Below, piece after piece: positions 14,587 through 34,722 of a stretch of DNA of 64,000 nt (position 1 is the first letter of the stretch; every line of letters starts with the position of its first letter). The stretch lies in NCBI GenBank assembly GCA_035400945.1, contig DAONAJ010000003.1, positions 88,676 to 152,675 on the forward strand, in the 5' to 3' direction. The translations under genes and the position numbers were made by a program. The notes beneath the pieces were generated by a model, which worked only from the letters and a program-made list of their open reading frames with translations, did not search any database and was not told the origin of the DNA. The DNA is from Spirochaetota bacterium. Lineage in GTDB: Bacteria; Spirochaetota; UBA4802; UBA5550.

Positions 14587-16143
14587 TTAATCATCGATGA
14601 TCAGGGCCATGTTGTGGAGATCCTGCACCATGCAGTCCAGGTCCCGGGAACTCTCCGAAAGCCTCCGGGCCCCCTCGGAGTAGACCTGGGTGATTTCATT
14701 CAGGCTGGTGATGGACTTCACGATCTCGCTCATGGACGCCTTCTGATCAGCCATCGACTTCTTGATCTCGTCGGACATGTTCATGACCGCCCCGGCCTCG
14801 TCGATGACCCTGCGGTTGATCTCCTTCTGGTTTTCCATCTGCTGGGAGATCTCCCGTATCTCGGTGCTGATGGCGCTTACGCCGGAGATGATCTTCATGA
14901 TGGTGGCCACCGTTGCCTCGACGTTGGCCATGCCGCGGCCGATCTCCTCGACGTTCGCCTTGATGAGCCCGTCGATCTCCTTGATGCTCGCCGCGGTCTG
15001 GTCGGCCAGCTTGGATATCTCGTCGGCGACTACGGCGAAGCCGCGCCCGGCCTCGCCGGCCCGGGCCGCCTCGATGGCGGCGTTCAGGCTGAGGAGGTTC
15101 GTCTTGTCGGATATATCGCCGATCATGCCCACGATGCCGGTCATCTGCCCCGAGCTCTCGTTGACCTTCGTGAAGCTCGCGCTCATGGCGCTGAGGACGT
15201 CGCCGCCGCGGTTGGCGACGCCGGACACCTCGTCCGTCAGGGCAAAGGCCTTCTGGATCCGCGCGGCGATCTCCCGGACCGTGCCGGAGAGGGTCTCGAT
15301 GTTCCCCGTGAGGGACACCATGCTGGTGTACTGGTTCACCACGCTGTCGGACACCATGTCGACGCCGCTGGAGATCTCCTCGGAGGTGGCGGTAATCTGT
15401 TCGATGGCCGAGGCCTGGCTCTGGGACTGCATGGAAAAGGAATCCGACTCCTTCGATAGCCGGCCGGAATTGTCCGTCAGCTTTGCCGATACATCCTTAA
15501 TGGAGTCATAGAGGCCCTTGATGACCCGGTACTGGTCCTCGTTTTTCTTCGCCTGTTCTTCCGTGCGGTCAAGGGCCGTTTTATTAATCTTGAATATCTG
15601 GTATGATATGAGACCGATAAAAACAATCGCGATGCCGCTGTCCACCAGGTAATCTATGGATGAGGTTTCATCCAGCTTGAACCTGTCAGACATCAACAGG
15701 AAGAAAAGAATGAATATCAGTAAATTGACCCCCGCATAGAGAAGGATGACCCATTTTTTCTTGGACACTACCAGGGGCGTCAGCACCAGGATGCCCGGAA
15801 TGTACACGATCGTGTCCAGGACGACTATGGAGCTTTTACTTTCATCAAGAAAGAGCGTGGCCCATACGGCAAGAAGGGTGATAATCATGAGCATATGCGC
15901 GGCAACGACATATTTCCCTTTTTTAAGGAAATAAATGGCGATCACCACCATGACCATGACCATGACCAGGGGGGCATTGAGTTCAATAGCCACCTGCCCC
16001 GTCACGATGTTCATGATGATGACGATAGGCACGATGCTGAAGATGATCAGCGAAATCGTGAGGATAATCCGTGATTTCTGCTTCAGGATATAGCTTGAAT
16101 CACGATAGACGCCGAGAAAATAGTCAATGATTTTTGAAAACAT
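14587..16143 (-). CDS. Methyl-accepting chemotaxis protein with N-terminal 6-TM sensor module (family A)
   Basis: 518 aa; about 190 aa polytopic membrane N-terminus, then MCP signalling domain with the highly conserved hairpin tip (NLLSLNAAIEAARAGEAGRGFAVVADEI). Confidence 0.85.
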   Translation of the reverse strand: MFSKIIDYFLGVYRDSSYILKQKSRIILTISLIIFSIVPIVIIMNIVTGQVAIELNAPLVMVMVMVVIAIYFLKKGKYVVAAHMLMIITLLAVWATLFLDESKSSIVVLDTIVYIPGILVLTPLVVSKKKWVILLYAGVNLLIFILFFLLMSDRFKLDETSSIDYLVDSGIAIVFIGLISYQIFKINKTALDRTEEQAKKNEDQYRVIKGLYDSIKDVSAKLTDNSGRLSKESDSFSMQSQSQASAIEQITATSEEISSGVDMVSDSVVNQYTSMVSLTGNIETLSGTVREIAARIQKAFALTDEVSGVANRGGDVLSAMSASFTKVNESSGQMTGIVGMIGDISDKTNLLSLNAAIEAARAGEAGRGFAVVADEISKLADQTAASIKEIDGLIKANVEEIGRGMANVEATVATIMKIISGVSAISTEIREISQQMENQKEINRRVIDEAGAVMNMSDEIKKSMADQKASMSEIVKSITSLNEITQVYSEGARRLSESSRDLDCMVQDLHNMALIIDD

Positions 16144-16266: not shown

Positions 16267-17892
16267 TTAAACCAATCTTCTTATAACGATAACGGTGCAG
16301 TCATCTCCCGGCGGCTTCAGTCCGAGAAACCGGTAGAATTCATCCATGATATGGTCCAGGATAGCCCGGGCGGGACCGGCAGGCCCCCCTTCCAGGGATT
16401 CAATGATACGCTTCTGGCCGTATTGTTCCGCGGATTCATTGACGCTTTCATCAAGACCGTCGGTATACAGGAGCAGGACGTCATCCTTGGCCATGCGGAA
16501 CCGGACAACGTCAAAATCGCCGCTGATGTCATCCATGCCGAGGATGGTCCCCCGCTGGTCCCTGTCCTGCGGCTTGACCATGCCGGCCCTTCCGGTGCCG
16601 GCCCTCCTCATCAGCAGGGCGTGATGGCCGGCATTGACGTATTCCACGCGGTCATCCCTGAACCTGAGCACGATGCCGCTCAGGTAGTTGTCGACGCTGC
16701 TGATGTCCGATTTCAGGTCAGCGTTCACATTCTCAATGACCTTGCCGAGACCGGCATCCTTCATCTGGGTGAAATTCCTCCCGATGATCGATTTCGCCAG
16801 GAGGGTGAAGATCCCCGCCGATATGCCATGGCCCGAAACGTCAAAGAGGGAAAGGCCTGCCAGCCTGTTGTCATGGACGTAAAAGTCATACAGGTCGCCT
16901 GAAACCCCCGCCTTGGGAAGATAGTCGAAGGCCACATCCCACTCGTCCGACGCCGGGGCCTCCCTGGGGAACAGGCTCTCCTGCACCCCGGCCGCCATGG
17001 CCATGTCCAGGGACGCGACGCGCTGGGCGTCCTCCAGCTCGGCGTTGGTATGGACCAGGCGGTCGTTGATAGCTTCGAGCTCCTCCATGGCGGCGTGGAG
17101 CTCCTCGGTGCGCTCCTCCACCTTCTTCTCCAGGTTCCTGTTCAGCTCCTCGACCTCGATCTGGAGCCGGACATAGCGGTTCATCAGAATCTGCGCCATG
17201 GAAAGTATTATGATGATATAGGCGTATTCAATGAGGTATATGAAGGGGTAAACCGCCGCCCCCACCAGGACATCATTGGCCGCGGCGATGAAAAATATCA
17301 CGAAGGCGACAAGGAGGGGGAGAATCTTCCTGTTCCCCGATTTCAGGTCTTTCACGATCAGGTAGAGTATCCACACATACCCCGCCATCATGGAGACATA
17401 CTGCACCAGATAGATGAGGCCCGGATCCACTTCCTGGTAGGTGATGTTGATGTAATTTCCAAGCCTTACCGGTTTCAGCATCGGGCGGTCCAGCGACAAC
17501 GTGAGTTCGTTCCTGACCGCCAGGCCGAGTATGAAAAGAACGAAAAAGTATCCGGCGATAACATAAAACAGCTTGCCGATCCGGTAATGCGAGAAATCAA
17601 AGAGGAACCAGAGCACCGCGATGCAGAGAAGGGCCAGACTGGCAAACTGGAACCGCTGCCAGAACATGCCCTCGGCCAGGGTCTGCGCGTTGTAGAGGCC
17701 CCCGCAGAAGAGGTCGTAGGCGGAAACGATAAAGCAGGTCACGGCGAAGGAAAGCTGTTCTCTCTCCGACCTTCTCCTGAAATACATCCAGAGGTAATAG
17801 AATCCCACGTAGAACGAAACGGACGCGGACATAAAAACAGGCACTGATAACCAGTTCACGGATGCGATCCCTCCTGTACAGCTCTGGTTCAT
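16267..17892 (-). CDS. 7TM receptor (7TMR-DISM-like 7TM, family B) fused to PP2C/SpoIIE protein phosphatase
   Basis: 541 aa; 7 predicted TM helices, coiled-coil linker, SpoIIE/PP2C domain (GDLYDFYVHDNRLAGLSLFDVSGHG...YTDGL). Confidence 0.8.
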   Translation of the reverse strand: MNQSCTGGIASVNWLSVPVFMSASVSFYVGFYYLWMYFRRRSEREQLSFAVTCFIVSAYDLFCGGLYNAQTLAEGMFWQRFQFASLALLCIAVLWFLFDFSHYRIGKLFYVIAGYFFVLFILGLAVRNELTLSLDRPMLKPVRLGNYINITYQEVDPGLIYLVQYVSMMAGYVWILYLIVKDLKSGNRKILPLLVAFVIFFIAAANDVLVGAAVYPFIYLIEYAYIIIILSMAQILMNRYVRLQIEVEELNRNLEKKVEERTEELHAAMEELEAINDRLVHTNAELEDAQRVASLDMAMAAGVQESLFPREAPASDEWDVAFDYLPKAGVSGDLYDFYVHDNRLAGLSLFDVSGHGISAGIFTLLAKSIIGRNFTQMKDAGLGKVIENVNADLKSDISSVDNYLSGIVLRFRDDRVEYVNAGHHALLMRRAGTGRAGMVKPQDRDQRGTILGMDDISGDFDVVRFRMAKDDVLLLYTDGLDESVNESAEQYGQKRIIESLEGGPAGPARAILDHIMDEFYRFLGLKPPGDDCTVIVIRRLV

Positions 17893-18033: not shown

Positions 18034-20973
18034 CTACGGCTTCCCTGCCGCCGGGCCGGCGCTGCCGGCAAAGGTGTCCCTGAACTTCTCGATCGTAATC
18101 CTGAACCGGCCTGAAAGCCTTCCCTCGCGGGCAGCGAGGCGGATGCCCAGGGCCATGTAGGCCGTGCGCATCGATATCTTGTAGGCGCGCGAAAGCCTGA
18201 TGGTCTCCGTCGTGGCCCACCGGAGTATGAATTTAAAGGCGTAATCGTACACCGTTTCGTCAACATGCCTCAGCTCGCCGTTCCAGGCGTCAGGGTGGAA
18301 CCTGCAGACCAGGTTGTGCACGATGGGATGGACGAACCCTTCCCGGTGCATGCGGCCGTAGCCGAAGACCTGGATCAGGCCGTTCAGCCATTCCAGATAC
18401 GAGGCCAGGACCCCGCCGGAATTGGCCAGGATATCGGGGAAGGAGATCCTTCCCATCTCGGTTAGGACGTCCTCCGCGTCGGCGGTCACCGGCCCGTTGG
18501 CGCCCTGGAGGACGTACTCCCCTTCCAGGACCCTCACGTTCACGGTCGTGCCGCGGCCGTCGCCGCGGTTGACGATGACGTCCTCGAGGGCGGAGGGGAC
18601 CACGACGTTCACGACCGCCGAAAGCGGCCGGATCGTGTCCGCCGGGATGAACTCGCCGCGGTCAAGGATTTCCCGGGGAGCGTCGGCGAGCCTGCATGTC
18701 CCGCTCCTGCAGAAGGCGTGAAGGCCGGCGATTCCCTCTATGCCCCGGTCGTTCGCCAGGGTGCCGCTGATGTCGGATATCATCTTTATCTTTCCCCCGA
18801 TGCCGTCGATGATCCCGGCAAAGGAGGCGCCCACCTTGCCGAAGCCCTGGACCGCGAAGGTGAGCATCCTGATGCGGCGGTGCGCCAGGCGGTAAAACTC
18901 TTCGTCGGAGGATAGTGCGTCGCCCACCCTGGCCGGATCGGCCCAGAGGGACGGGTCGCCGTAATCGCCGAAATTCTGCTGCGCCGCCAGTACCTCGACC
19001 AGGCCCCTGCCGGTGGCGCCGGTGCGGATCCGCAGCCCCCGCGCCCCGGGCTTCCCGGTTATGGAGGCGGCGGTATATCCTTCAAGCCTGTCGCGGTCGG
19101 AGGCGAGGGTTTTCACCAGCTCGCCGGAACCGGTGCTGATGCCGAAATTCTCTTTCAGGATGCGCGCCTCCGGGGAATCCGGGGCGAGGGAGCCGGCCAT
19201 GATGGCCTTCAGATCCCGGGAAGCGTTATCCGTTATGCGGTTGAACAGGATGCCGATCTCGTCCGCGCCGATGCCCACGTCCCCGGCGGGAACGTCGGAG
19301 AAGGGCCCCACGCCCGCCCGGTAATAAAGAAAATCGGCGTAGGCGTTGAGGACGTTTTCACGGGCCTCCTTCCCCTCCTCCGCCGGAAGGGAGCTGAAGC
19401 GCAGGTCTCCCAGGATGCCCCCCTTGCCGGCGGCGTAGAGGGGAATTCCCAGGCCGAGGGTCTTGAAGAGCATGTTGGTGGACAGGGCCCCCTCGCCGGA
19501 AAAGGAAACATGGTCCGCGTGGGCCCTGATCCCGCCCTTGCCGATCCCGATCCCGCTGATCCGGATAAAAAGGTACTGCCTGCCGGTCCGGGGCTCCCGG
19601 TAATCTTCATAATAAATGTCGCGGAAGGATATAAGGCGGATGATCTCCTCGTCCGTGAGGGAGCGCGCCGGGCGGTCCGCCTCGCGCTCCAGGGGCACCG
19701 TCGACGCAGTCACGATGTTCTTCAGGGTGGACCAGTAGTAATCGTTCTTCATCTCCGCCGTCGGGTTCAGGAGATAGTGCTTGATCAGGCCGAAGGTCTT
19801 TTCCCGTATGTCACGGTTCCCGTCGTTCAGCAGAAAGACCAGGGGTATCAGGTATTCCTTGCGCTTGTTCTTCTGCATCGCCTCGATCAGGTCAAGCTTC
19901 TCGTAATCCTTTGCGGTCCTGATGCGGTCCAGGAGCTCCCGTATCTCGCCCACCGAAACGGGGGCCGACTGGAGCAGCACCAGCCGGTTATAGAGCTCCC
20001 CTCTCAGGAAATCCTCAACCTCGGGCGAGAGCATCGCGGCCTCGACGCAGGTGGTGAGGGCAATGAAGGCGCGCCCGCCGATAAGGAACGTTTCGAAGTA
20101 CTGGCGGTTGATGGAAATGCCGCGGCGCTCGAAGATCCTGTTGATGGTGCTGAAGTTTTCCTGGAACTTCTCCAGGGGCAGCCAGACCCGGACCATCTTT
20201 TCGTCCGACCCGTCCTCCCGGTCGGGCATGACATCGATATACAGGTCTTCATCGTTGCGGATAAGGGAGCGGACCGACAGCCAGGGAAACAAATAGTTCT
20301 GGATATTGCGCTTTTTTGCATTATGGAGCGCCCTGGTCAAAAATCCGCTCCCGCAGGAGGCGATAAAGTCGCGGATGTCACCGGCGGCGACCGGCGGCGT
20401 TTGGCCGCGAAGCGCCTCCGCCATGAAGGCCGCGGCCCCATCACCTTTGCCGGCTTCGGCGGGCCGCGCCTCCTCCCTCTCGAGGATATAGAGCCTCCGG
20501 ATGTCCCTGTTCTCCGGGTGAAAGCGCACCAGGTACGAATAGAGGCGGAAGCGGCAGGGGCCGCCATCGCTCATGATGCGCTCAATGGCCGCCGTGGTCT
20601 TGCGGACAAGATCGGTCGTATCGGATATGAGGAAGAGGTGCTTGTCGGGAAAATCGCCGCGGACATCTATGTTCCGGTAACAGCCGTCGGCATCGCAGCG
20701 CTCCTTTTCCTGGTAACGGTTGTGCTCCAGGAGAAAAGAAACCTCCTCGATGCTGAGGGACAGCTCTTCCAGGTCACGGTAAAGATAGGGATAGTCCCAT
20801 GAATTGATTTTTGCGGCTATGCTCTCGAGCTCATGGATGATGGATTCGGGCGAAAGATCCGAATGGCTCACCAGGTGGTCATAGAGCCTCTTGACATCCT
20901 TGTCCGATATCAGCCGTGACTTGATCCGGTTCAATCTCTCAGCATAGGGATCCGCTCCGCTTTGTGCCAGCAT
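18034..20973 (-). CDS. Large Glu/Leu/Phe/Val-dehydrogenase superfamily protein (large NAD-GDH-like, about 110 kDa class)
   Basis: 979 aa; C-terminal half carries all GDH signatures (GIGKGGIR and AAGKGGILGD Lys motifs, DVPAGDVGIGADEIG, Rossmann VQGFGKVGASFAG, PDILANSGGVLASYLEW) with an internal insertion of about 35-40 aa; about 470 aa N-terminal region has no domain I recognise. Confidence 0.7.
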   Translation of the reverse strand: MLAQSGADPYAERLNRIKSRLISDKDVKRLYDHLVSHSDLSPESIIHELESIAAKINSWDYPYLYRDLEELSLSIEEVSFLLEHNRYQEKERCDADGCYRNIDVRGDFPDKHLFLISDTTDLVRKTTAAIERIMSDGGPCRFRLYSYLVRFHPENRDIRRLYILEREEARPAEAGKGDGAAAFMAEALRGQTPPVAAGDIRDFIASCGSGFLTRALHNAKKRNIQNYLFPWLSVRSLIRNDEDLYIDVMPDREDGSDEKMVRVWLPLEKFQENFSTINRIFERRGISINRQYFETFLIGGRAFIALTTCVEAAMLSPEVEDFLRGELYNRLVLLQSAPVSVGEIRELLDRIRTAKDYEKLDLIEAMQKNKRKEYLIPLVFLLNDGNRDIREKTFGLIKHYLLNPTAEMKNDYYWSTLKNIVTASTVPLEREADRPARSLTDEEIIRLISFRDIYYEDYREPRTGRQYLFIRISGIGIGKGGIRAHADHVSFSGEGALSTNMLFKTLGLGIPLYAAGKGGILGDLRFSSLPAEEGKEARENVLNAYADFLYYRAGVGPFSDVPAGDVGIGADEIGILFNRITDNASRDLKAIMAGSLAPDSPEARILKENFGISTGSGELVKTLASDRDRLEGYTAASITGKPGARGLRIRTGATGRGLVEVLAAQQNFGDYGDPSLWADPARVGDALSSDEEFYRLAHRRIRMLTFAVQGFGKVGASFAGIIDGIGGKIKMISDISGTLANDRGIEGIAGLHAFCRSGTCRLADAPREILDRGEFIPADTIRPLSAVVNVVVPSALEDVIVNRGDGRGTTVNVRVLEGEYVLQGANGPVTADAEDVLTEMGRISFPDILANSGGVLASYLEWLNGLIQVFGYGRMHREGFVHPIVHNLVCRFHPDAWNGELRHVDETVYDYAFKFILRWATTETIRLSRAYKISMRTAYMALGIRLAAREGRLSGRFRITIEKFRDTFAGSAGPAAGKP

Positions 20974-30093: not shown

Positions 30094-32262
30094 TTACAGC
30101 ACCTTGAAGGCATTGGTCACTCCCTCATAGGAGCTTATTTTACCGGTCCAGCCCGACTTCCAGTTCCCCTTGTGTCGGATCCGATACGTTCCCGGCTCCG
30201 CGTTTTTCGTGTGCCACGTTATGGTTATCTTCGAGTATGATATCCCGTCTCTCTGCCAGCGGTATGTTGTCTCCGGGTCCCAGTCGCGGGCCACGGGGAC
30301 GTAACTCCCGTTCACCAGCTTCTCGACGACCAGGAACGTGTCCTGCGTACGGAGATTGTTGTTGGGGTGGCCGCCCCAGAACTGCGCGCTTACCGTGTCG
30401 CCCCGGCTGTAGCTCGCGCCGGGCTGGGTTATGACATCGCCGAAATTCTTGAAGAGCGGCTTGTCGTCCAGCACCACCTTGGCGGTAAAATCCACGGTGA
30501 GCCCCGTCACGTCCTGGGGAGACGGGCCGGCGGGGACATCGCTGCCGTCAACGATGGCCCTGCAGAGCTTCGCGTATTCCTGGCGGAACGCAGCCAGTTC
30601 GTTGGGACCGAACTGCGTGCAGGCGCCCTCGTACCACTGCATCGCGTATTCCTCCCTGGTGGCAAGATAGGATGCATAGGAGTTGGCGAGGCTCGATACA
30701 ACCGCCATGTCCACGCCGAGTCCGGACAGGCCGGTCACCAGCGTGTCCTTGATGCGGCGTCCCGACATGGTGGTGACCTCGGCGGGAACGGCCGCTATGG
30801 CCAGGTTCCCTATCTTGAGCACCTGGAGCGGCATGACCTGCGGCGTCATGGTCGGCCCGTTGATATTGATATGGGCGATGCCGGTCGGGATGAGCACCGG
30901 TTTCTCGGCCTGGCATTTCTTGTATGCCGCGTCATTGGTGGCGGGCCACGCGAAGGCGAAGACGCCGCCGAGGAACGTGCTCAGGAACGTGCTGGCGGCA
31001 TTGTCGCTCCAGTTAAGGCTGGCAACGGTGGTCCCGTTCGGGAACAACGGCGACGGGCTCGGGTTGTCCGACGGGCTCCCGGCGGAGAAGGAAGCGCCCA
31101 TGCCGGCAGCGCACGTGGTGCATTTCGTCTCTTCCACGTACAGCGTCCGCATGTCCACCCATTCATGGCGGTAATCGATCGAGCCTGAAAGCTCCCTCGT
31201 TGCGCCGTTATACAGTTCTTTCGCCTTATTGTACTGCTTGAGGACCGCATTCTCAAGGCTTTTATTCTTTTCAAAGGTGACGTCAGCCGGGGCCTGGCCG
31301 AAGCCGATGTTGGGCGTCACGTCGCCAGCGCTGGCCTGGGCGAAGGCGGCGACGAAGGTCCTGGCGGCAAGGTAATCGGTTCCCTTGTCCTTTTCGAAAA
31401 GGTATGATGCCCACCCCTTGTTATCGCCGCTGATCAGTCTGTTTTCAGGCCCGATACTGTCGGGATGAACCGCGTACCAGTTCACCATGCCGATCTCCTC
31501 GCCGTCAAGGGTGACGAACTTCAGGAGGGTCATGGTTGTATCGGTAATGCTGCTGTACCGCGCCCGCTCCGCGGCGGGATTGTTGTTATAGGCGGTCTCG
31601 GCGCGGTTTCCGCCGCAGCCCTCGATGGCGCCCTGGGCCACGAGTATCCTCCCCCGCTTCAGGTTGTTATGGGCCCTGAGTATCGACTGGTAAATGCCGT
31701 CAACGATGGCGTTGAAGTTCTGCTTCACGAAGCCGTTGATGGTCACATCGTAGAGGAAATATCCCGAGTAACCCCCGGGGCCGTTGTGGGTGTGCGTGGC
31801 GGAAAGGAGAACGTTCTTCTCATTGTAATATTTCGCCAGATCCGCGTTCCCCGCGATTTTCTCGCAGACCTTGACTTTGACCATCTGGAAGAGCATCCCC
31901 AGGTCCGCGCTCACGAAAACGACCCGCTTGTCAGCGTCACCGATTATGTAGGCGCGCGAGCGGAGCCGCAGGTGAATGCCGGATGTCTTCTGCTCTGACA
32001 CGGCGTATCCCATCATGCCGATTTCAGCCGCTGGTCCGGTTATATCGTAGATCCCGGCGCCGATAAGGTACACGCTTCCGCCGGACCCGGTTGTTTCATT
32101 GGGTTGTATGGCGGTTCCGCCATTACTGTCTGTCTGGCCTGAATCCGATCCTAGAAGGGGAAAGGGATTGTTGTCTGAATCACTATCACAGCCTGGATAC
32201 ACCAGACATAGCATCGAAAAAAGAAAAACAGCCATGAAAAATTTTTTCTTACCATTGCCCAT
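30094..32262 (-). CDS. Neutral/alkaline ceramidase (lipoprotein)
   Basis: 722 aa; signal peptide with Cys lipobox; N-terminal block closely matches the neutral ceramidase signature (YLIGAGIYDITGPAAEIGMMGYA...GIHLRLRSRAYII...VVFVSADLGM...NVLLSATHTHNGPGGY). Confidence 0.8.
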   Translation of the reverse strand: MGNGKKKFFMAVFLFSMLCLVYPGCDSDSDNNPFPLLGSDSGQTDSNGGTAIQPNETTGSGGSVYLIGAGIYDITGPAAEIGMMGYAVSEQKTSGIHLRLRSRAYIIGDADKRVVFVSADLGMLFQMVKVKVCEKIAGNADLAKYYNEKNVLLSATHTHNGPGGYSGYFLYDVTINGFVKQNFNAIVDGIYQSILRAHNNLKRGRILVAQGAIEGCGGNRAETAYNNNPAAERARYSSITDTTMTLLKFVTLDGEEIGMVNWYAVHPDSIGPENRLISGDNKGWASYLFEKDKGTDYLAARTFVAAFAQASAGDVTPNIGFGQAPADVTFEKNKSLENAVLKQYNKAKELYNGATRELSGSIDYRHEWVDMRTLYVEETKCTTCAAGMGASFSAGSPSDNPSPSPLFPNGTTVASLNWSDNAASTFLSTFLGGVFAFAWPATNDAAYKKCQAEKPVLIPTGIAHININGPTMTPQVMPLQVLKIGNLAIAAVPAEVTTMSGRRIKDTLVTGLSGLGVDMAVVSSLANSYASYLATREEYAMQWYEGACTQFGPNELAAFRQEYAKLCRAIVDGSDVPAGPSPQDVTGLTVDFTAKVVLDDKPLFKNFGDVITQPGASYSRGDTVSAQFWGGHPNNNLRTQDTFLVVEKLVNGSYVPVARDWDPETTYRWQRDGISYSKITITWHTKNAEPGTYRIRHKGNWKSGWTGKISSYEGVTNAFKVL

Positions 32263-32478: not shown

Positions 32479-34722
32479 ATGAAAGTAAAAAAAACAAGTA
32501 TCTACACATCCCTTCAGGACTTAATAATAAAAAACTTTCACCTGAGCCCTGAAGCGATGATGGCTCAATTCTGTCAGGGGATCATGGATCTCTACCCTCT
32601 CCAGGGTGCGGCCATTGCCGCAAGAAGCGGGACAGGCTTTGCACTGCGCTATAGCCGAAACATCTTTAATGATAACCCCGACATGGAATTCGACTATACC
32701 GATGCCGATATCATTGTATTCTCAAAGGAAGATAAGCACTCCAAAAACGAGCTCTTCTTTATTCCCGATGGGGAGCGGACCATACTCCTGATACTGGCAC
32801 CATCCAAGAGAAACCGCATCAACGTCCCGGAGATACAGGACGCGGCCAATCTCCTTGCCAGGGTCCTGGTGCAGCAGAAGATGAAGGCCGATCTGCTCCT
32901 CAAGTACAGCAACTACAAGACCATATTCAAGAAAACCTCGAACCTCACGGCAATACTCAACACCCGCGGGGAAGTGGTGGAATGGAACGAGGCGGCGGAG
33001 GAGCTCTTCGGCCGGGACCTTGCCGGCACCCCCGTCAGCTACGTTGATTTCGTCCATGATGACGAACTGACGCGAACCAGGGAGCTGTTCTCCTCGATGT
33101 ACCGCGGCATCATGAAATACCGCAAAACCCTTGACCCGGAGCGGCTGGGGAATGATCCGGCCTACCTGAAAACGGCGCGGGAAACCATCATGGAGATGGG
33201 AACGAGCCAGGGCTTCACCAGGCTGACAAACCGGAGCGGCAGCAAGACCCTTGACGTTGATTACACCATCAGTCTCATCATCCCCCCTGGTTCGCTGGAC
33301 ATACTGGGCTGCATCGTCACCACCACCGATGTCACCAAGCGGAAGGTCATGCGGGAGCGGCTTGAGGAGTCGGAGCGGAAATACCGCGAGCTCTTCAACC
33401 TGGTGCCGCTCTTCTCGATGCTCATCGACACCTCGGGAAAAACCGTTGATTACAACTATGTTTCAATGGAAGACTACGGCCTTGACCCCGGACAGGAGGC
33501 CCTGTCATACATGGATTTCATCCACGAGGAAGACCGCAACCGGGCCGCGTCGCTGTTCATCAACCTCTACACCAGCGCGATCGAGATTAAGAACCGCTGG
33601 ATCAAGGACAAGGCCATCACCATGGATGAATGCGCCAGGGAACTGCGTTCGCTCCGCATCAGGAACGAGCCGCTCCGTCTGCTGAGCCGGGGGAAAGACA
33701 AGTATTTCGAGACCCAGTTCAGCGCCAGCCTCTGGATCGGCGAATCAGACCTCGAGATAAAGGGCGCCCTCCTCTCCGCCATTGACGTGACGGAACGGAA
33801 CAATTACCGGCGGAAACTGGAGGAATCGGAAAAGAAATACCGGGAGCTTGTCGAGGAGAAGACCAGGGACATCATCTTCTCCCTCGACAACAGGGCCCAG
33901 TTCATCATGGTCAACAGCAACATCAGGGAAAAGCTCGGCTACCCGGAGGATTCAGTCATCGGGAAGCACATCATCGACATCCTCTACAAGGACCCCATCG
34001 ACAAGAACCAGATAAACCGGGAAACCTTCCTGGAGAACATCCACCGCGTCCTCGATGACCGCGTCCCCGACGTTCGCTTCAAGGCGGTCTGCGACCACAA
34101 GTTCCTCGGTGAACCGGTGACCCTCCAGTTCAAGCTGGATCCCATCATCGAGAACGACGCCGTCATCGGCATCATGGGCTTCGCGTCGGAGATATCGGAC
34201 GATCCCCTGCGGGAATATCTGGAAAAGGAAACCCTGTCCTACACCATCGACAACCGTCTTACCATAGCGGACGAGGTGAGCTTCCGGATAACGCGCAATC
34301 TGCAGAAGTACCTGCCCATCGGCAAGATAAGCCTGCTGCGCCTCGGCATCAGGGAGATGATCATCAATGCCATCGAACACGGGAACCTGGGCATAACCTA
34401 CGAGGAGAAGACCCTGGCCCAGAAGAACCAGAGCTACCATGATTTACTCCGGGAGCGGCAGATGAGCACCGAGAACCGCCACAAGAAGGTACGCATCGAT
34501 TACCAGTTGAATGAAGAAGCCATAACCTACACCATCAGGGACGAGGGCAAAGGCTTCGACTACCGGAAATTCATCAAGCTCAAGGTCAAAGCACTGAACG
34601 ACCAGATGCTGCAGCACGGCCGCGGCATCCTCATCACCCGGTCCGTTTTTGACCAGATACAATATAACGAAAAGGGAAACGAAGTTCACCTGGTGGCTTT
34701 TTTAAAGAAGAATACCGATTAA
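32479..34722 (+). CDS. Multi-PAS sensor with C-terminal RsbW/SpoIIAB-like GHKL ATPase (anti-sigma-factor-type Ser kinase) domain
   Basis: 747 aa; at least three PAS-like repeats each followed by the coiled-coil signature (RLEESERKYRELF; KLEESEKKYRELV), C-terminal HATPase_c_2-like block (GIREMIINAIEHGNLGI...TIRDEGKGFD...GRGILITRSVFD). Confidence 0.7.
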   Translation: MKVKKTSIYTSLQDLIIKNFHLSPEAMMAQFCQGIMDLYPLQGAAIAARSGTGFALRYSRNIFNDNPDMEFDYTDADIIVFSKEDKHSKNELFFIPDGERTILLILAPSKRNRINVPEIQDAANLLARVLVQQKMKADLLLKYSNYKTIFKKTSNLTAILNTRGEVVEWNEAAEELFGRDLAGTPVSYVDFVHDDELTRTRELFSSMYRGIMKYRKTLDPERLGNDPAYLKTARETIMEMGTSQGFTRLTNRSGSKTLDVDYTISLIIPPGSLDILGCIVTTTDVTKRKVMRERLEESERKYRELFNLVPLFSMLIDTSGKTVDYNYVSMEDYGLDPGQEALSYMDFIHEEDRNRAASLFINLYTSAIEIKNRWIKDKAITMDECARELRSLRIRNEPLRLLSRGKDKYFETQFSASLWIGESDLEIKGALLSAIDVTERNNYRRKLEESEKKYRELVEEKTRDIIFSLDNRAQFIMVNSNIREKLGYPEDSVIGKHIIDILYKDPIDKNQINRETFLENIHRVLDDRVPDVRFKAVCDHKFLGEPVTLQFKLDPIIENDAVIGIMGFASEISDDPLREYLEKETLSYTIDNRLTIADEVSFRITRNLQKYLPIGKISLLRLGIREMIINAIEHGNLGITYEEKTLAQKNQSYHDLLRERQMSTENRHKKVRIDYQLNEEAITYTIRDEGKGFDYRKFIKLKVKALNDQMLQHGRGILITRSVFDQIQYNEKGNEVHLVAFLKKNTD

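What the first reader, a model, noticed from the sequence alone, without database searches (positions are those of the whole stretch)
18034..20973. 979-aa GDH-superfamily protein with about 470-aa uncharacterised N-terminal region and an insertion in the catalytic core
All Glu/Leu/Phe/Val dehydrogenase motifs are present in the C-terminal half, but split by an extra segment of about 35-40 residues between the substrate and NAD domains. They are preceded by about 470 residues with no motif I can assign. The overall size and layout resemble the poorly characterised large NAD-GDH classes (about 115 kDa) rather than 50-kDa GDHs. Its operon position next to an aminotransferase suggests substrate-specific amino-group recycling.
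Basis: partly seen in the sequence, partly recalled or inferred. Interest (0 to 1): 0.6.

Follow-up and report, generated by a model that had tools for sequence, protein, structure and literature searches.

The report
Mosaic large glutamate dehydrogenase, rare family
This gene encodes a rare, uncharacterised ~108-kDa glutamate-dehydrogenase-like enzyme that joins the regulatory-looking front end of the 115-kDa "large" GDHs to a catalytic core of the ordinary 50-kDa type, a combination the current GDH classification does not include.

Summary
The 979-aa ORF is real but lies on the minus strand (ATG at 20973, AGGAGG 8 nt upstream). All GDH catalytic residues are present and invariant in the 24 aligned full-length relatives: K479, K504, K517, D565, N826, S858, and the GFGKVG motif at 710-715.

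The N-terminal ~430 aa match no Pfam or PDB sequence. Profile methods nevertheless show that residues ~20-330 are homologous to the N-terminus of L-GDH115-type enzymes (hhalign E 4e-13). The AF2 model shows two ACT-like ββαββα units there.

The catalytic half is of the small-GDH type. PF02812 and PF00208 hit 24/24 aligned members and PF05088 hits 0/24. It scores 122-147 bits against S-GDH50 and 20-24 bits against L-GDH115.

The core carries three family-specific insertions, not one: 583-628, 664-691 and 875-907. The first two flank the inter-domain hinge.

The family is rare: 27 loci in 185,579 species, all Leptospirales-like Spirochaetota or Desulfolunaceae/Desulfobacterales.

The aminotransferase is not adjacent (an MFS gene lies between) and co-occurs in only two lineages. 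FGGY kinase and MFS are the steadier neighbours.

Verdict: a new architectural variant of a known enzyme kind, most likely an allosterically regulated glutamate dehydrogenase. Moderate interest.

The parts
18034..20973 (-). Whole ORF, 979 aa plus stop: mosaic large GDH-like protein
20698..20946 (-). Residues ~10-92: N-terminal helical domain, homologous to GDH2_N (PF23147) of L-GDH115-type enzymes
   Evidence: AF2 helices; hhalign q20-326 to L-GDH115 7-292, E 4e-13; BLASTP to P0060
20410..20667 (-). Residues ~103-188: first ACT-like ββαββα module
   Evidence: AF2 secondary structure, pLDDT 83-92 for most of the unit; same topology as ACT* of mL-GDH180 (PMC8175468); aligned to the GDH_2nd region
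20242..20409 (-). Residues ~189-244: helical linker, the least conserved N-terminal segment (deleted in P0023/P0028)
19972..20241 (-). Residues ~245-334: second ACT-like ββαββα module (conserved EKFQEN...FERRGI..RQYFETF)
   Evidence: BLASTP 255-292 to P0062 234-273
19699..19953 (-). Residues ~341-425: all-helical HEAT/ARM-like module (KEYLIPLV.LLND..IR..AF; MKNDYYWSTLKNI), the most conserved N-terminal part
   Evidence: HEAT-repeat proteins hit by this stretch only
19228..19653 (-). Residues ~441-582: catalytic subdomain I of S-GDH50 type, with K479, K504, K517, D565
   Evidence: PF02812; alignment to 1b26 and to S-GDH50 sequences
19090..19227 (-). Residues 583-628: insertion A (46 aa, about three short helices) before the TGKP motif; absent from S-GDH50 and L-GDH115, present in the P0076/P0077 subfamily
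18985..19089 (-). Residues 629-663: hinge element ITGKPG...GATGRG (K641, R650)
18901..18984 (-). Residues 664-691: insertion B (28 aa, helical) before the Rossmann β1-GFGKVG
18352..18900 (-). Residues 692-874: NAD(P)-binding subdomain II (G710-G715, D734, N826, S858)
   Evidence: PF00208
18253..18351 (-). Residues 875-907: insertion C (33 aa) after the SYLEWLNG helix
18037..18252 (-). Residues 908-979: C-terminal helices equivalent to the S-GDH50 C-terminus, plus a 21-aa poorly conserved tail; no L-GDH C-terminal domain
21016..22254 (-). MFS transporter (anion:cation-symporter-like), immediately upstream; 42-nt gap, no terminator
22396..23886 (-). Class-III aminotransferase, HemL/GntE-like, below all equivalog cut-offs
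24043..24735 (-). Class-II aldolase/epimerase family protein (FucA/AraD-like)
24891..26492 (-). FGGY-family sugar kinase (XylB/GntK-like, below cut-offs), first gene of the putative operon; promoter-like sites at 26530-26713

Best explanation
The gene encodes a catalytically competent NAD(P)+-dependent amino-acid dehydrogenase, most likely L-glutamate dehydrogenase, with a mosaic architecture.

Residues ~10-334 form a helical domain plus two ACT-like ββαββα modules. They are homologous to the N-terminal GDH2_N/GDH_2nd region of L-GDH115-type enzymes. Residues ~341-425 are a HEAT/ARM-like helical connector. Residues ~431-958 are an S-GDH50-type catalytic core. Its inter-domain hinge is bracketed by two family-specific helical insertions (583-628, 664-691), and a third insertion follows at 875-907.

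Inferred mechanism: the ACT-like modules bind a metabolite effector and/or set the oligomeric state, as proposed for L-GDH180. The hinge-flanking insertions would couple them to opening and closing of the catalytic cleft.

In this organism it is the last gene of a five-gene operon: FGGY kinase, class-II aldolase, HemL-like aminotransferase, MFS transporter, GDH. There it plausibly re-oxidises glutamate made by the transaminase, regenerating 2-oxoglutarate and releasing ammonium.

Shown here: architecture, homologies, residue conservation, rarity, gene order. Inferred: substrate, allostery, role of the insertions, co-transcription.
For: - ORF and RBS.
- Catalytic residues K479/K504/K517/D565, TGKP, GFGKVG, N826 and S858 align to T. 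maritima GDH and S-GDH50 and are invariant in 24 homologues. K479 and S858 correspond to C. symbiosum K89/S380, which bind the glutamate γ-carboxylate (established knowledge).
- S-type core: PF02812 and PF00208 in 24/24 members, PF05088 in 0/24. PDB phmmer hits are all small GDHs. Foldseek top 50 are all S-GDH50-type, with TMt about 0.8 for the bacterial, archaeal and plant enzymes and about 0.65 for the animal ones. The family catalytic HMM scores 122-147 bits on S-GDH50, 20-24 bits on L-GDH115 and finds nothing on L-GDH180.
- L-type N-terminus: the exhaustive profile search finds only GDH2_N/GDH_2nd/Bac_GDH_CD proteins beyond the family. hhalign E 4e-13 over q20-326. BLASTP is collinear, 21-293 to 16-240 of P0060. 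Foldseek with the N-terminal model alone ranks mL-GDH180 first (9hv0, E 1.3e-3, prob 1.0) and hits a maize ACT-like domain. The AF2 models show two ββαββα units (pLDDT about 80-90), the topology described for ACT* domains in PMC8175468.
- Insertions mapped and conserved in the family (column identity 0.52-0.58) and shared with a second long S-type subfamily.
- Operon: same strand, 42-nt gap, no terminator, promoter-like sites only upstream of FGGY. The same gene order occurs in L003/L009, L008, L010 and L011, and it is rearranged but retained in L001/L024.
Against: - No biochemical data exist for any member, and coenzyme preference cannot be read from the sequence.
- Active-site loops have low model confidence (pLDDT below 50 at about 482-495, 510-512, 564-567 and 640-644). 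They include a family-specific invariant HVSFSGEG motif, so the pocket may differ from canonical GDH.
- In L012, L028 and L035 the gene sits with FGGY and MFS but no aminotransferase. In Desulfoluna and about 6 other lineages none of these neighbours is present. The glutamate-recycling role is therefore at best local.
- The structural match of the N-terminus to L-GDH180 is borderline (TMq 0.23). The profiles are shallow (Neff about 3; A3 has 7 sequences).
- Model coordinates could not be inspected, so contact between the insertions and the ACT-like modules is conjecture.
Confidence: 0.6

Rival explanations
1. It is a dehydrogenase for a different amino acid. It would oxidatively deaminate the compound imported by the MFS transporter (for example a hydroxylated or sugar-derived α-amino acid) to a 2-oxo acid that the FGGY kinase then phosphorylates. 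The aminotransferase and aldolase would be lineage-specific additions.
For: - FGGY and MFS, usually with the AraC-7TM-GAF regulator, flank the gene in 4-5 separate spirochaete lineages, three of them without any aminotransferase (L012, L028, L035).
- The MFS protein resembles sugar-acid transporters and the kinase resembles xylulo-/gluconokinases.
- The family has an invariant, non-canonical HVSFSGEG stretch next to K479, and the model is poorly confident in the pocket loops.
Against: - The γ-carboxylate-binding pair K479/S858 is invariant. In Leu/Phe/Val dehydrogenases these positions are replaced (established knowledge).
- The same active-site residues are kept in Desulfoluna and other lineages that lack the kinase and transporter, so one housekeeping substrate is the more economical reading.
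Confidence: 0.17
2. It is simply a divergent but ordinary member of the L-GDH115/L-GDH180 (PF05088) family.
For: Similar length, a homologous N-terminal ~310 aa, and overall collinearity in hhalign (E 2e-12, 730 columns).
Against: - PF05088 is not hit by any of 24 members, even at E<=1.
- The catalytic HMM scores only 20-24 bits on L-GDH115 and nothing on L-GDH180, against 122-147 bits on S-GDH50.
- PF02812, absent from the L-GDH115-type proteins scanned, is present in 24/24.
- The hhalign register in subdomain I is wrong: the K517 motif is placed on ARGG.
- There is no L-GDH C-terminal domain.
- L-GDH180 structures are not among the top 50 Foldseek hits of the full-length model.
Confidence: 0.05
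3. It is a catalytically dead GDH-like scaffold or sensor (pseudoenzyme) that works with the neighbouring signalling proteins (7TM-PP2C phosphatase, MCP).
For: Neighbouring genes are signalling proteins in several loci; long non-catalytic N-terminus.
Against: Every catalytic and cofactor-binding residue is invariant across two phyla at 44-90% overall identity, which is the pattern expected of an active enzyme.
Confidence: 0.04

Closest known systems
Small hexameric glutamate dehydrogenases (S-GDH50; Pfam PF02812 + PF00208; e.g. Thermotoga maritima 1B26, plant GDH2 8S38, C. symbiosum 1BGV)
   Same: The catalytic core is of this type. Both Pfam domains score above their cut-offs. All catalytic, glutamate-binding and dinucleotide-binding residues are present. 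Foldseek TMt is about 0.8. Identity is 25-30%.
   Different: The core is preceded by about 430 extra residues. It carries about 142 extra residues as insertions at 583-628, 664-691 and 875-907, two small ones and a tail. Subunit mass is about 108 kDa rather than 50 kDa. Oligomeric state is unknown.
Large NAD-GDH of the 115-kDa class (L-GDH115, yeast GDH2 type; Pfam PF23147 GDH2_N + PF23152 GDH_2nd + PF05088 Bac_GDH_CD)
   Same: Overall length and domain order. The N-terminal helical domain plus two ββαββα modules are homologous (hhalign E 4e-13; profile hits at E 2.5e-7 to 5.5e-4 against the whole library).
   Different: The catalytic domain is not of the PF05088 type (0/24 members; 20-24 bits only). 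There is no L-GDH C-terminal extension. Hinge insertions A and B are absent from L-GDH115. Pfam's own GDH2_N/GDH_2nd models do not reach significance on this family.
Large GDH of the 180-kDa class (L-GDH180, M. smegmatis; PDB 7A1D, 9HV0; PMC8175468)
   Same: ACT-like ββαββα modules and helical motifs precede the catalytic domain. It is the best PDB structural match for the N-terminal region alone (E 1.3e-3, prob 1.0).
   Different: No PAS domain, no third ACT* module and no C-terminal domain. About 600 residues shorter. No detectable sequence similarity of the catalytic domains with the family HMM.
Unnamed second subfamily of ~830-930-aa S-type GDHs (P0076, P0077, P0078, P0095, P0169)
   Same: Long N-terminus, S-type core (PF02812 at E 1e-25 to 1e-29), and insertions at the same two hinge-flanking positions with a recognisable shared motif (..IL.EHFG[IV]..). 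These are the best non-family hits of the catalytic HMM (121-172 bits).
   Different: Only about 30% identity in the core. The N-terminus is barely similar (hhalign E 1.5e-3; GDH2_N E 0.047). Also uncharacterised.

Membership tests
ELFV amino-acid dehydrogenase superfamily / S-GDH50 | Pfam PF02812 (subdomain I) and PF00208 (NAD(P)-binding subdomain II) above gathering thresholds | tested here: met
   35.7 bits (cut-off 25.3) and 94.7 bits (cut-off 23.4) for the window protein; 24/24 family members hit both
ELFV amino-acid dehydrogenase superfamily / S-GDH50 | Catalytic Lys (Cs K125), Asp (D165), α-carboxylate Lys (K113), γ-carboxylate Lys/Ser (K89/S380), GxGxxG | tested here: met
   K517, D565, K504, K479/S858 and G710-G715 are aligned to 1b26 and to 14 S-GDH50 sequences, and are invariant in the family
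ELFV amino-acid dehydrogenase superfamily / S-GDH50 | ~50-kDa subunit in which the catalytic domain spans nearly the whole chain | tested here: not met
   979 aa; about 430-aa N-terminal extension and about 142 inserted residues
ELFV amino-acid dehydrogenase superfamily / S-GDH50 | Hexameric assembly through subdomain I; measurable GDH activity | not testable with these tools
   Needs protein biochemistry or a structure
L-GDH (115/180 kDa, Pfam PF05088 family) | Catalytic domain matching PF05088 Bac_GDH_CD | tested here: not met
   No hit at E<=1 in 24/24 members, whereas the L-GDH115-type P0060/P0062 hit at E 1e-25 to 1e-27; family catalytic HMM gives 20-24 bits on L-GDH115 and none on L-GDH180
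L-GDH (115/180 kDa, Pfam PF05088 family) | N-terminal GDH2_N + GDH_2nd (ACT-like) region | tested here: inconclusive
   Pfam models are not significant (best E 0.1-0.15 in 1 member). Homology is supported by the exhaustive profile search, hhalign E 4e-13, BLASTP and Foldseek.
L-GDH (115/180 kDa, Pfam PF05088 family) | Long C-terminal extension or domain after the catalytic core | tested here: not met
   The chain ends about 120 residues after the NSGGV..SY motif. Those residues align to S-GDH50 C-terminal helices plus insertion C, and no Pfam C-terminal domain is found.
ACT-like regulatory domain | ββαββα (or βαββαβ) fold with a four-stranded antiparallel sheet | tested here: met
   Two ββαββα units in two independent AF2 runs, mostly pLDDT 80-92; Foldseek hit to maize R ACT-like domain 9c7o (prob 0.89, TMt 0.59). 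This is model-level evidence only.
ACT-like regulatory domain | Binding of a small-molecule effector at a domain interface | not testable with these tools
   Requires binding or kinetic assays

The most novel reading that the evidence does not exclude
With the P0076-type subfamily, this family is an unrecognised third class of large amino-acid dehydrogenase: an L-GDH-type ACT-like front end on an S-type core. In the spirochaetes its job would not be glutamate turnover. It would directly deaminate an unidentified amino acid or amino-sugar acid taken up by the MFS transporter, feeding an FGGY-kinase (plus or minus class-II aldolase) pathway controlled by a dedicated 7TM sensor pair. Even if the substrate proves to be glutamate, the architecture could be a surviving intermediate, or a recombinant, between small and large GDHs, with a new quaternary and allosteric arrangement.
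Probability: 0.15. Interest if true: 0.7.

Novelty: new variant of a known kind. Interest (0 to 1): 0.45.

Why it matters
GDHs are currently sorted into S-GDH50, L-GDH115 and L-GDH180 (PMC8175468; bioRxiv 10.1101/2024.12.26.630402). The large classes are described as having lost the S-type oligomerisation elements of subdomain I.

A ~108-kDa enzyme that keeps an S-type subdomain I and also carries the L-type ACT-like N-terminus does not fit that scheme. It offers a tractable case for two questions: how the regulatory front end of large GDHs was acquired, and how it talks to the catalytic cleft. The hinge-flanking insertions are obvious candidates for that coupling.

The gene is also a marker for an uncharacterised, sensor-controlled catabolic operon in Leptospirales-like spirochaetes. 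The practical stakes are modest: the chemistry is probably ordinary glutamate deamination.

Tried and rejected
- **+ strand reading:** rejected, it has stops.
- **PF05088 membership:** rejected.
- **Sequence-only searches of the N-terminus:** PDB and Pfam gave nothing significant, only faint Arm/HEAT hits at 372-406.
- **HEAT-repeat STAND NTPases P0056/P0057:** their hits in the exhaustive search involve only the short HEAT-like stretch, repeated 9 times, so I set them aside as repeat matches rather than homologues.
- **Full-length hhalign against L-GDH115:** significant, but visibly out of register in subdomain I. I therefore tested the two halves separately.
- **P0071 (501 aa) as a natural 'catalytic-only' form:** rejected. 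It is preceded by a 474-aa ORF overlapping by 4 bp, and the break falls inside subdomain I, so a frameshift or pseudogene is more likely.
- **Aminotransferase as the defining partner:** rejected after the locus survey.
- **Literature:** searches found no description of this architecture.
- alignments A1/A2 and both models lack Met1, so their positions are true position minus 1. Corrected.
Full report
**Observation.** The interval 18034-20973 holds a 979-codon ORF on the minus strand; the plus-strand frame is interrupted by stops. The ATG at 20973 has AGGAGG 8 nt upstream, and the N-termini of homologues begin at the same place. Pfam places ELFV_dehydrog_N at residues 474-579 and ELFV_dehydrog at 698-867, both above the curated cut-offs, and finds no PF05088 even at E<=1. 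NCBIfam GDH equivalogs match only partially and far below their cut-offs. phmmer against the PDB finds only small GDHs. For T. maritima 1B26, query 475-594 aligns to 65-174 and query 704-869 to 211-360, which leaves about 73 unmatched query residues in between.

**Numbering note.** Alignments A1/A2 and both structure models were made from 18034-20970 and so lack Met1. All residue numbers in this report are true numbers, corrected.

**A real, rare family.** The first homologue search returned 48 proteins. Nearly all are 955-1000 aa, identical in architecture, 44-90% identical, and come from Spirochaetota MAGs and Desulfoluna/Desulfobacterales. A 24-sequence alignment is conserved along its whole length, including the N-terminal 430 residues and the inter-domain segment. 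A scan of one genome per species (185,579 species) found 27 loci. All are in Leptospirales-like Spirochaetota, Desulfolunaceae/Desulfobacterales, or MAGs labelled only 'bacterium' or 'Proteobacteria bacterium'. Public names are automatic only: 'Glu/Leu/Phe/Val dehydrogenase dimerization domain-containing protein'.

**Catalytic core.** The following residues align with the canonical residues of 1B26 and of 14 S-GDH50 sequences and are invariant in the family:
- K479 (C. symbiosum K89), K504 (K113), K517 (K125) and D565 (D165)
- the ITGKPG and GATGRG motifs
- GFGKVG at 710-715, D734, N826 and S858 (S380)

Retention of the K89/S380 pair, which binds the glutamate γ-carboxylate and is replaced in Leu/Phe/Val dehydrogenases (established knowledge), makes L-glutamate the most likely substrate.

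**Extra segments in the core.** Relative to S-GDH50 the core carries these additions, about 142 residues in all:

| Segment | Residues | Length |
|---|---|---|
| Insertion A | 583-628 | 46 aa |
| Insertion B | 664-691 | 28 aa |
| Insertion C | 875-907 | 33 aa |
| Small | 526-531 | 6 aa |
| Small | 804-811 | 8 aa |
| C-terminal tail | 959-979 | 21 aa |

This agrees with Foldseek, which aligns about 553 columns to about 410-residue targets at TMt about 0.8. A and B sit on either side of the TGKP...ATGRG hinge between subdomains I and II and are predicted helical. They are moderately conserved in the family (column identity 0.52-0.58, against 0.67-0.75 for the core). From the L-GDH115 consensus and the S-GDH50 alignment, both of those groups have short connections at these two places. 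So A and B are specific to this family and to a second long S-type subfamily (P0076/P0077), which has insertions at the same two positions and a shared ..IL.EHFG.. motif.

**N-terminal region.** Neither Pfam nor a PDB profile search recognises residues 1-445; there are only faint Arm/HEAT hits at 372-406. AlphaFold2 models of the full protein (pLDDT 79.5) and of the N-terminal 445 residues alone (pLDDT 81.9, pTM 0.70) agree on the layout:
- helices at about 10-92
- ββαββα at about 103-188
- helices at about 197-240
- ββαββα at about 245-334
- an all-helical module at about 341-425
- then the GDH fold

ββαββα is the 'ACT*' topology described for M. smegmatis L-GDH180 (PMC8175468). With the N-terminal model alone, the best PDB matches are the mL-GDH180 cryo-EM structures (9hv0 at E 1.3e-3, prob 1.00, 282 columns; also 9hv6, 9hv5, 7a1d, 9hux). 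An isolated ACT-like domain, 9c7o, also matches (prob 0.89, TMt 0.59).

**Exhaustive profile search.** This search of 1.84 billion representatives was decisive. Apart from family members, fragments and two HEAT-repeat proteins, the N-terminal profile found P0058-P0062 (E 2.5e-7 to 5.5e-4). These carry PF23147 GDH2_N and, in four of the five, PF23152 GDH_2nd. The two full-length ones (957 and 1037 aa) also carry PF05088 Bac_GDH_CD plus PF00208, the L-GDH115 architecture. hhalign of the N-terminal alignment against seven such proteins gives 97.9% probability and E 4e-13 for query 20-326 against 7-292. BLASTP of the window protein against P0060 is collinear over 21-293.

**Mosaic nature.** A family HMM of the catalytic half and one of the N-terminal half give opposite answers:

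| Target group | Catalytic-half HMM | N-terminal-half HMM |
|---|---|---|
| S-GDH50 | 122-147 bits | no hit |
| Second long S-type subfamily | 121-172 bits | 10-20 bits (2 of 5 hit) |
| L-GDH115 | 20-24 bits | up to 39 bits |
| L-GDH180 | no hit | no hit |

PF02812 is found in 24/24 members and PF05088 in 0/24, whereas the L-GDH115-type proteins show the reverse. The full-length hhalign match to L-GDH115 (E 2e-12, 730 columns) is driven by the N-terminus and the NAD domain, and is out of register in subdomain I. The chain ends with helices equivalent to the S-GDH50 C-terminus, so there is no L-GDH C-terminal domain. The protein is therefore neither an S-GDH50 nor an L-GDH as those classes are defined in the current literature. 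That literature also states that the S-type oligomerisation elements of subdomain I are missing from L-GDHs.

**Genomic context.** In the window the gene is last in a same-strand run:
- FGGY kinase (24891-26492)
- class-II aldolase (24043-24735)
- HemL/GntE-like class-III aminotransferase (22396-23886)
- MFS transporter (21016-22254)
- the GDH-like gene

. The gap before the GDH-like gene is 42 nt, with no terminator, and promoter-like sites occur only upstream of the FGGY gene. These simple scans do not exceed shuffled expectation. The same order recurs in the close clade (L003/L009, L008, L010, L011). L001/L024 (55% identity) has GDH-aminotransferase-2x aldolase with a divergent TetR-FGGY-MFS. 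L012, L028 and L035 keep the AraC-7TM-GAF regulator, FGGY and MFS next to the gene but have no aminotransferase or aldolase. Desulfoluna (five loci), L005, L007/L014, L013, L016, L017 and L020 have none of these neighbours. So 'amino-group recycling for the aminotransferase' is a reasonable local role, not the family's defining role. The steadier FGGY/MFS association keeps open the rival idea that the enzyme deaminates the imported compound itself.

**Mechanism proposed.** I propose an NAD(P)+-dependent glutamate dehydrogenase whose S-type core is regulated and/or assembled through ACT-like N-terminal modules inherited in common with L-GDHs. The hinge-flanking insertions would be the likely coupling elements. 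The architecture and homologies are shown; substrate, effector binding, oligomeric state and the role of the insertions are inferred. I could not inspect model coordinates, so spatial contacts remain untested.

**Novelty and score.** No paper in the searchable library describes this architecture. It is a new variant of a known enzyme kind: interesting for GDH evolution and allostery, with chemistry that is probably ordinary. Interest 0.45.

Noticed in passing
window 16267-17892 (-) and 28204-29913 (-): The two proteins that bracket the operon share a 7TM sensor module: 52% identity over 255 aa, E 2e-89. The module is fused to different outputs. One is a PP2C/SpoIIE phosphatase and the other is GAF + AraC HTH. 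This suggests one signal is read out both transcriptionally and by a phosphatase/partner-switching route. Both proteins are conserved next to the cluster in L003/L009 and L011, and partly in L012 and L028.
   Followed up: partly
window 21016-26492 (-), with 28204-29913 (-) and 30094-32262 (-): An uncharacterised catabolic-looking cluster: XylB/GntK-like FGGY kinase, FucA/AraD-like class-II aldolase, HemL/GntE-like class-III aminotransferase and a sugar-acid-type MFS transporter. All score below equivalog cut-offs. Upstream lie an AraC-7TM-GAF regulator and a neutral/alkaline ceramidase. The ceramidase is retained in L003/L009, L011 and L028. Transaminase, then kinase, then DHAP-type aldolase would suit an amino-polyol such as a sphingoid-base-like or amino-sugar compound. 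This is speculation only.
   Followed up: partly
P0076, P0077, P0078, P0095, P0169 (not in the window): A second, more distant subfamily of 830-930-aa GDH-like proteins. It has a strong S-type PF02812/PF00208 core, insertions at the same two hinge-flanking positions, and a faint GDH2_N signal. 'Long S-type GDHs' may therefore be a wider, undescribed group. Its size and taxonomy were not determined.
   Followed up: partly
L035 4580-7506: In one metagenomic relative the gene is called as two ORFs (474 aa + 501 aa) overlapping by 4 bp, with the break inside catalytic subdomain I. This is probably a frameshift or pseudogene rather than a natural two-subunit form.
   Followed up: partly
window 14587-16143 (-), 26866-28197 (+), 32479-34722 (+): There is dense signalling around the cluster: an MCP chemoreceptor directly downstream (conserved in several related loci), a second SpoIIE-type phosphatase, and a PAS-PAS-HATPase_c_2 protein (anti-sigma-factor-kinase-like). 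These hint at a partner-switching network.
   Followed up: no
window 18034-20973 (-), residues 488-495: The family-invariant motif H-V-S-F-S-G-E-G lies between the K479 and K504 motifs, where S-GDH50s have a variable segment one residue shorter. Both this loop and other pocket loops have pLDDT below 50 in the model. It could mark an altered substrate pocket or lid.
   Followed up: no
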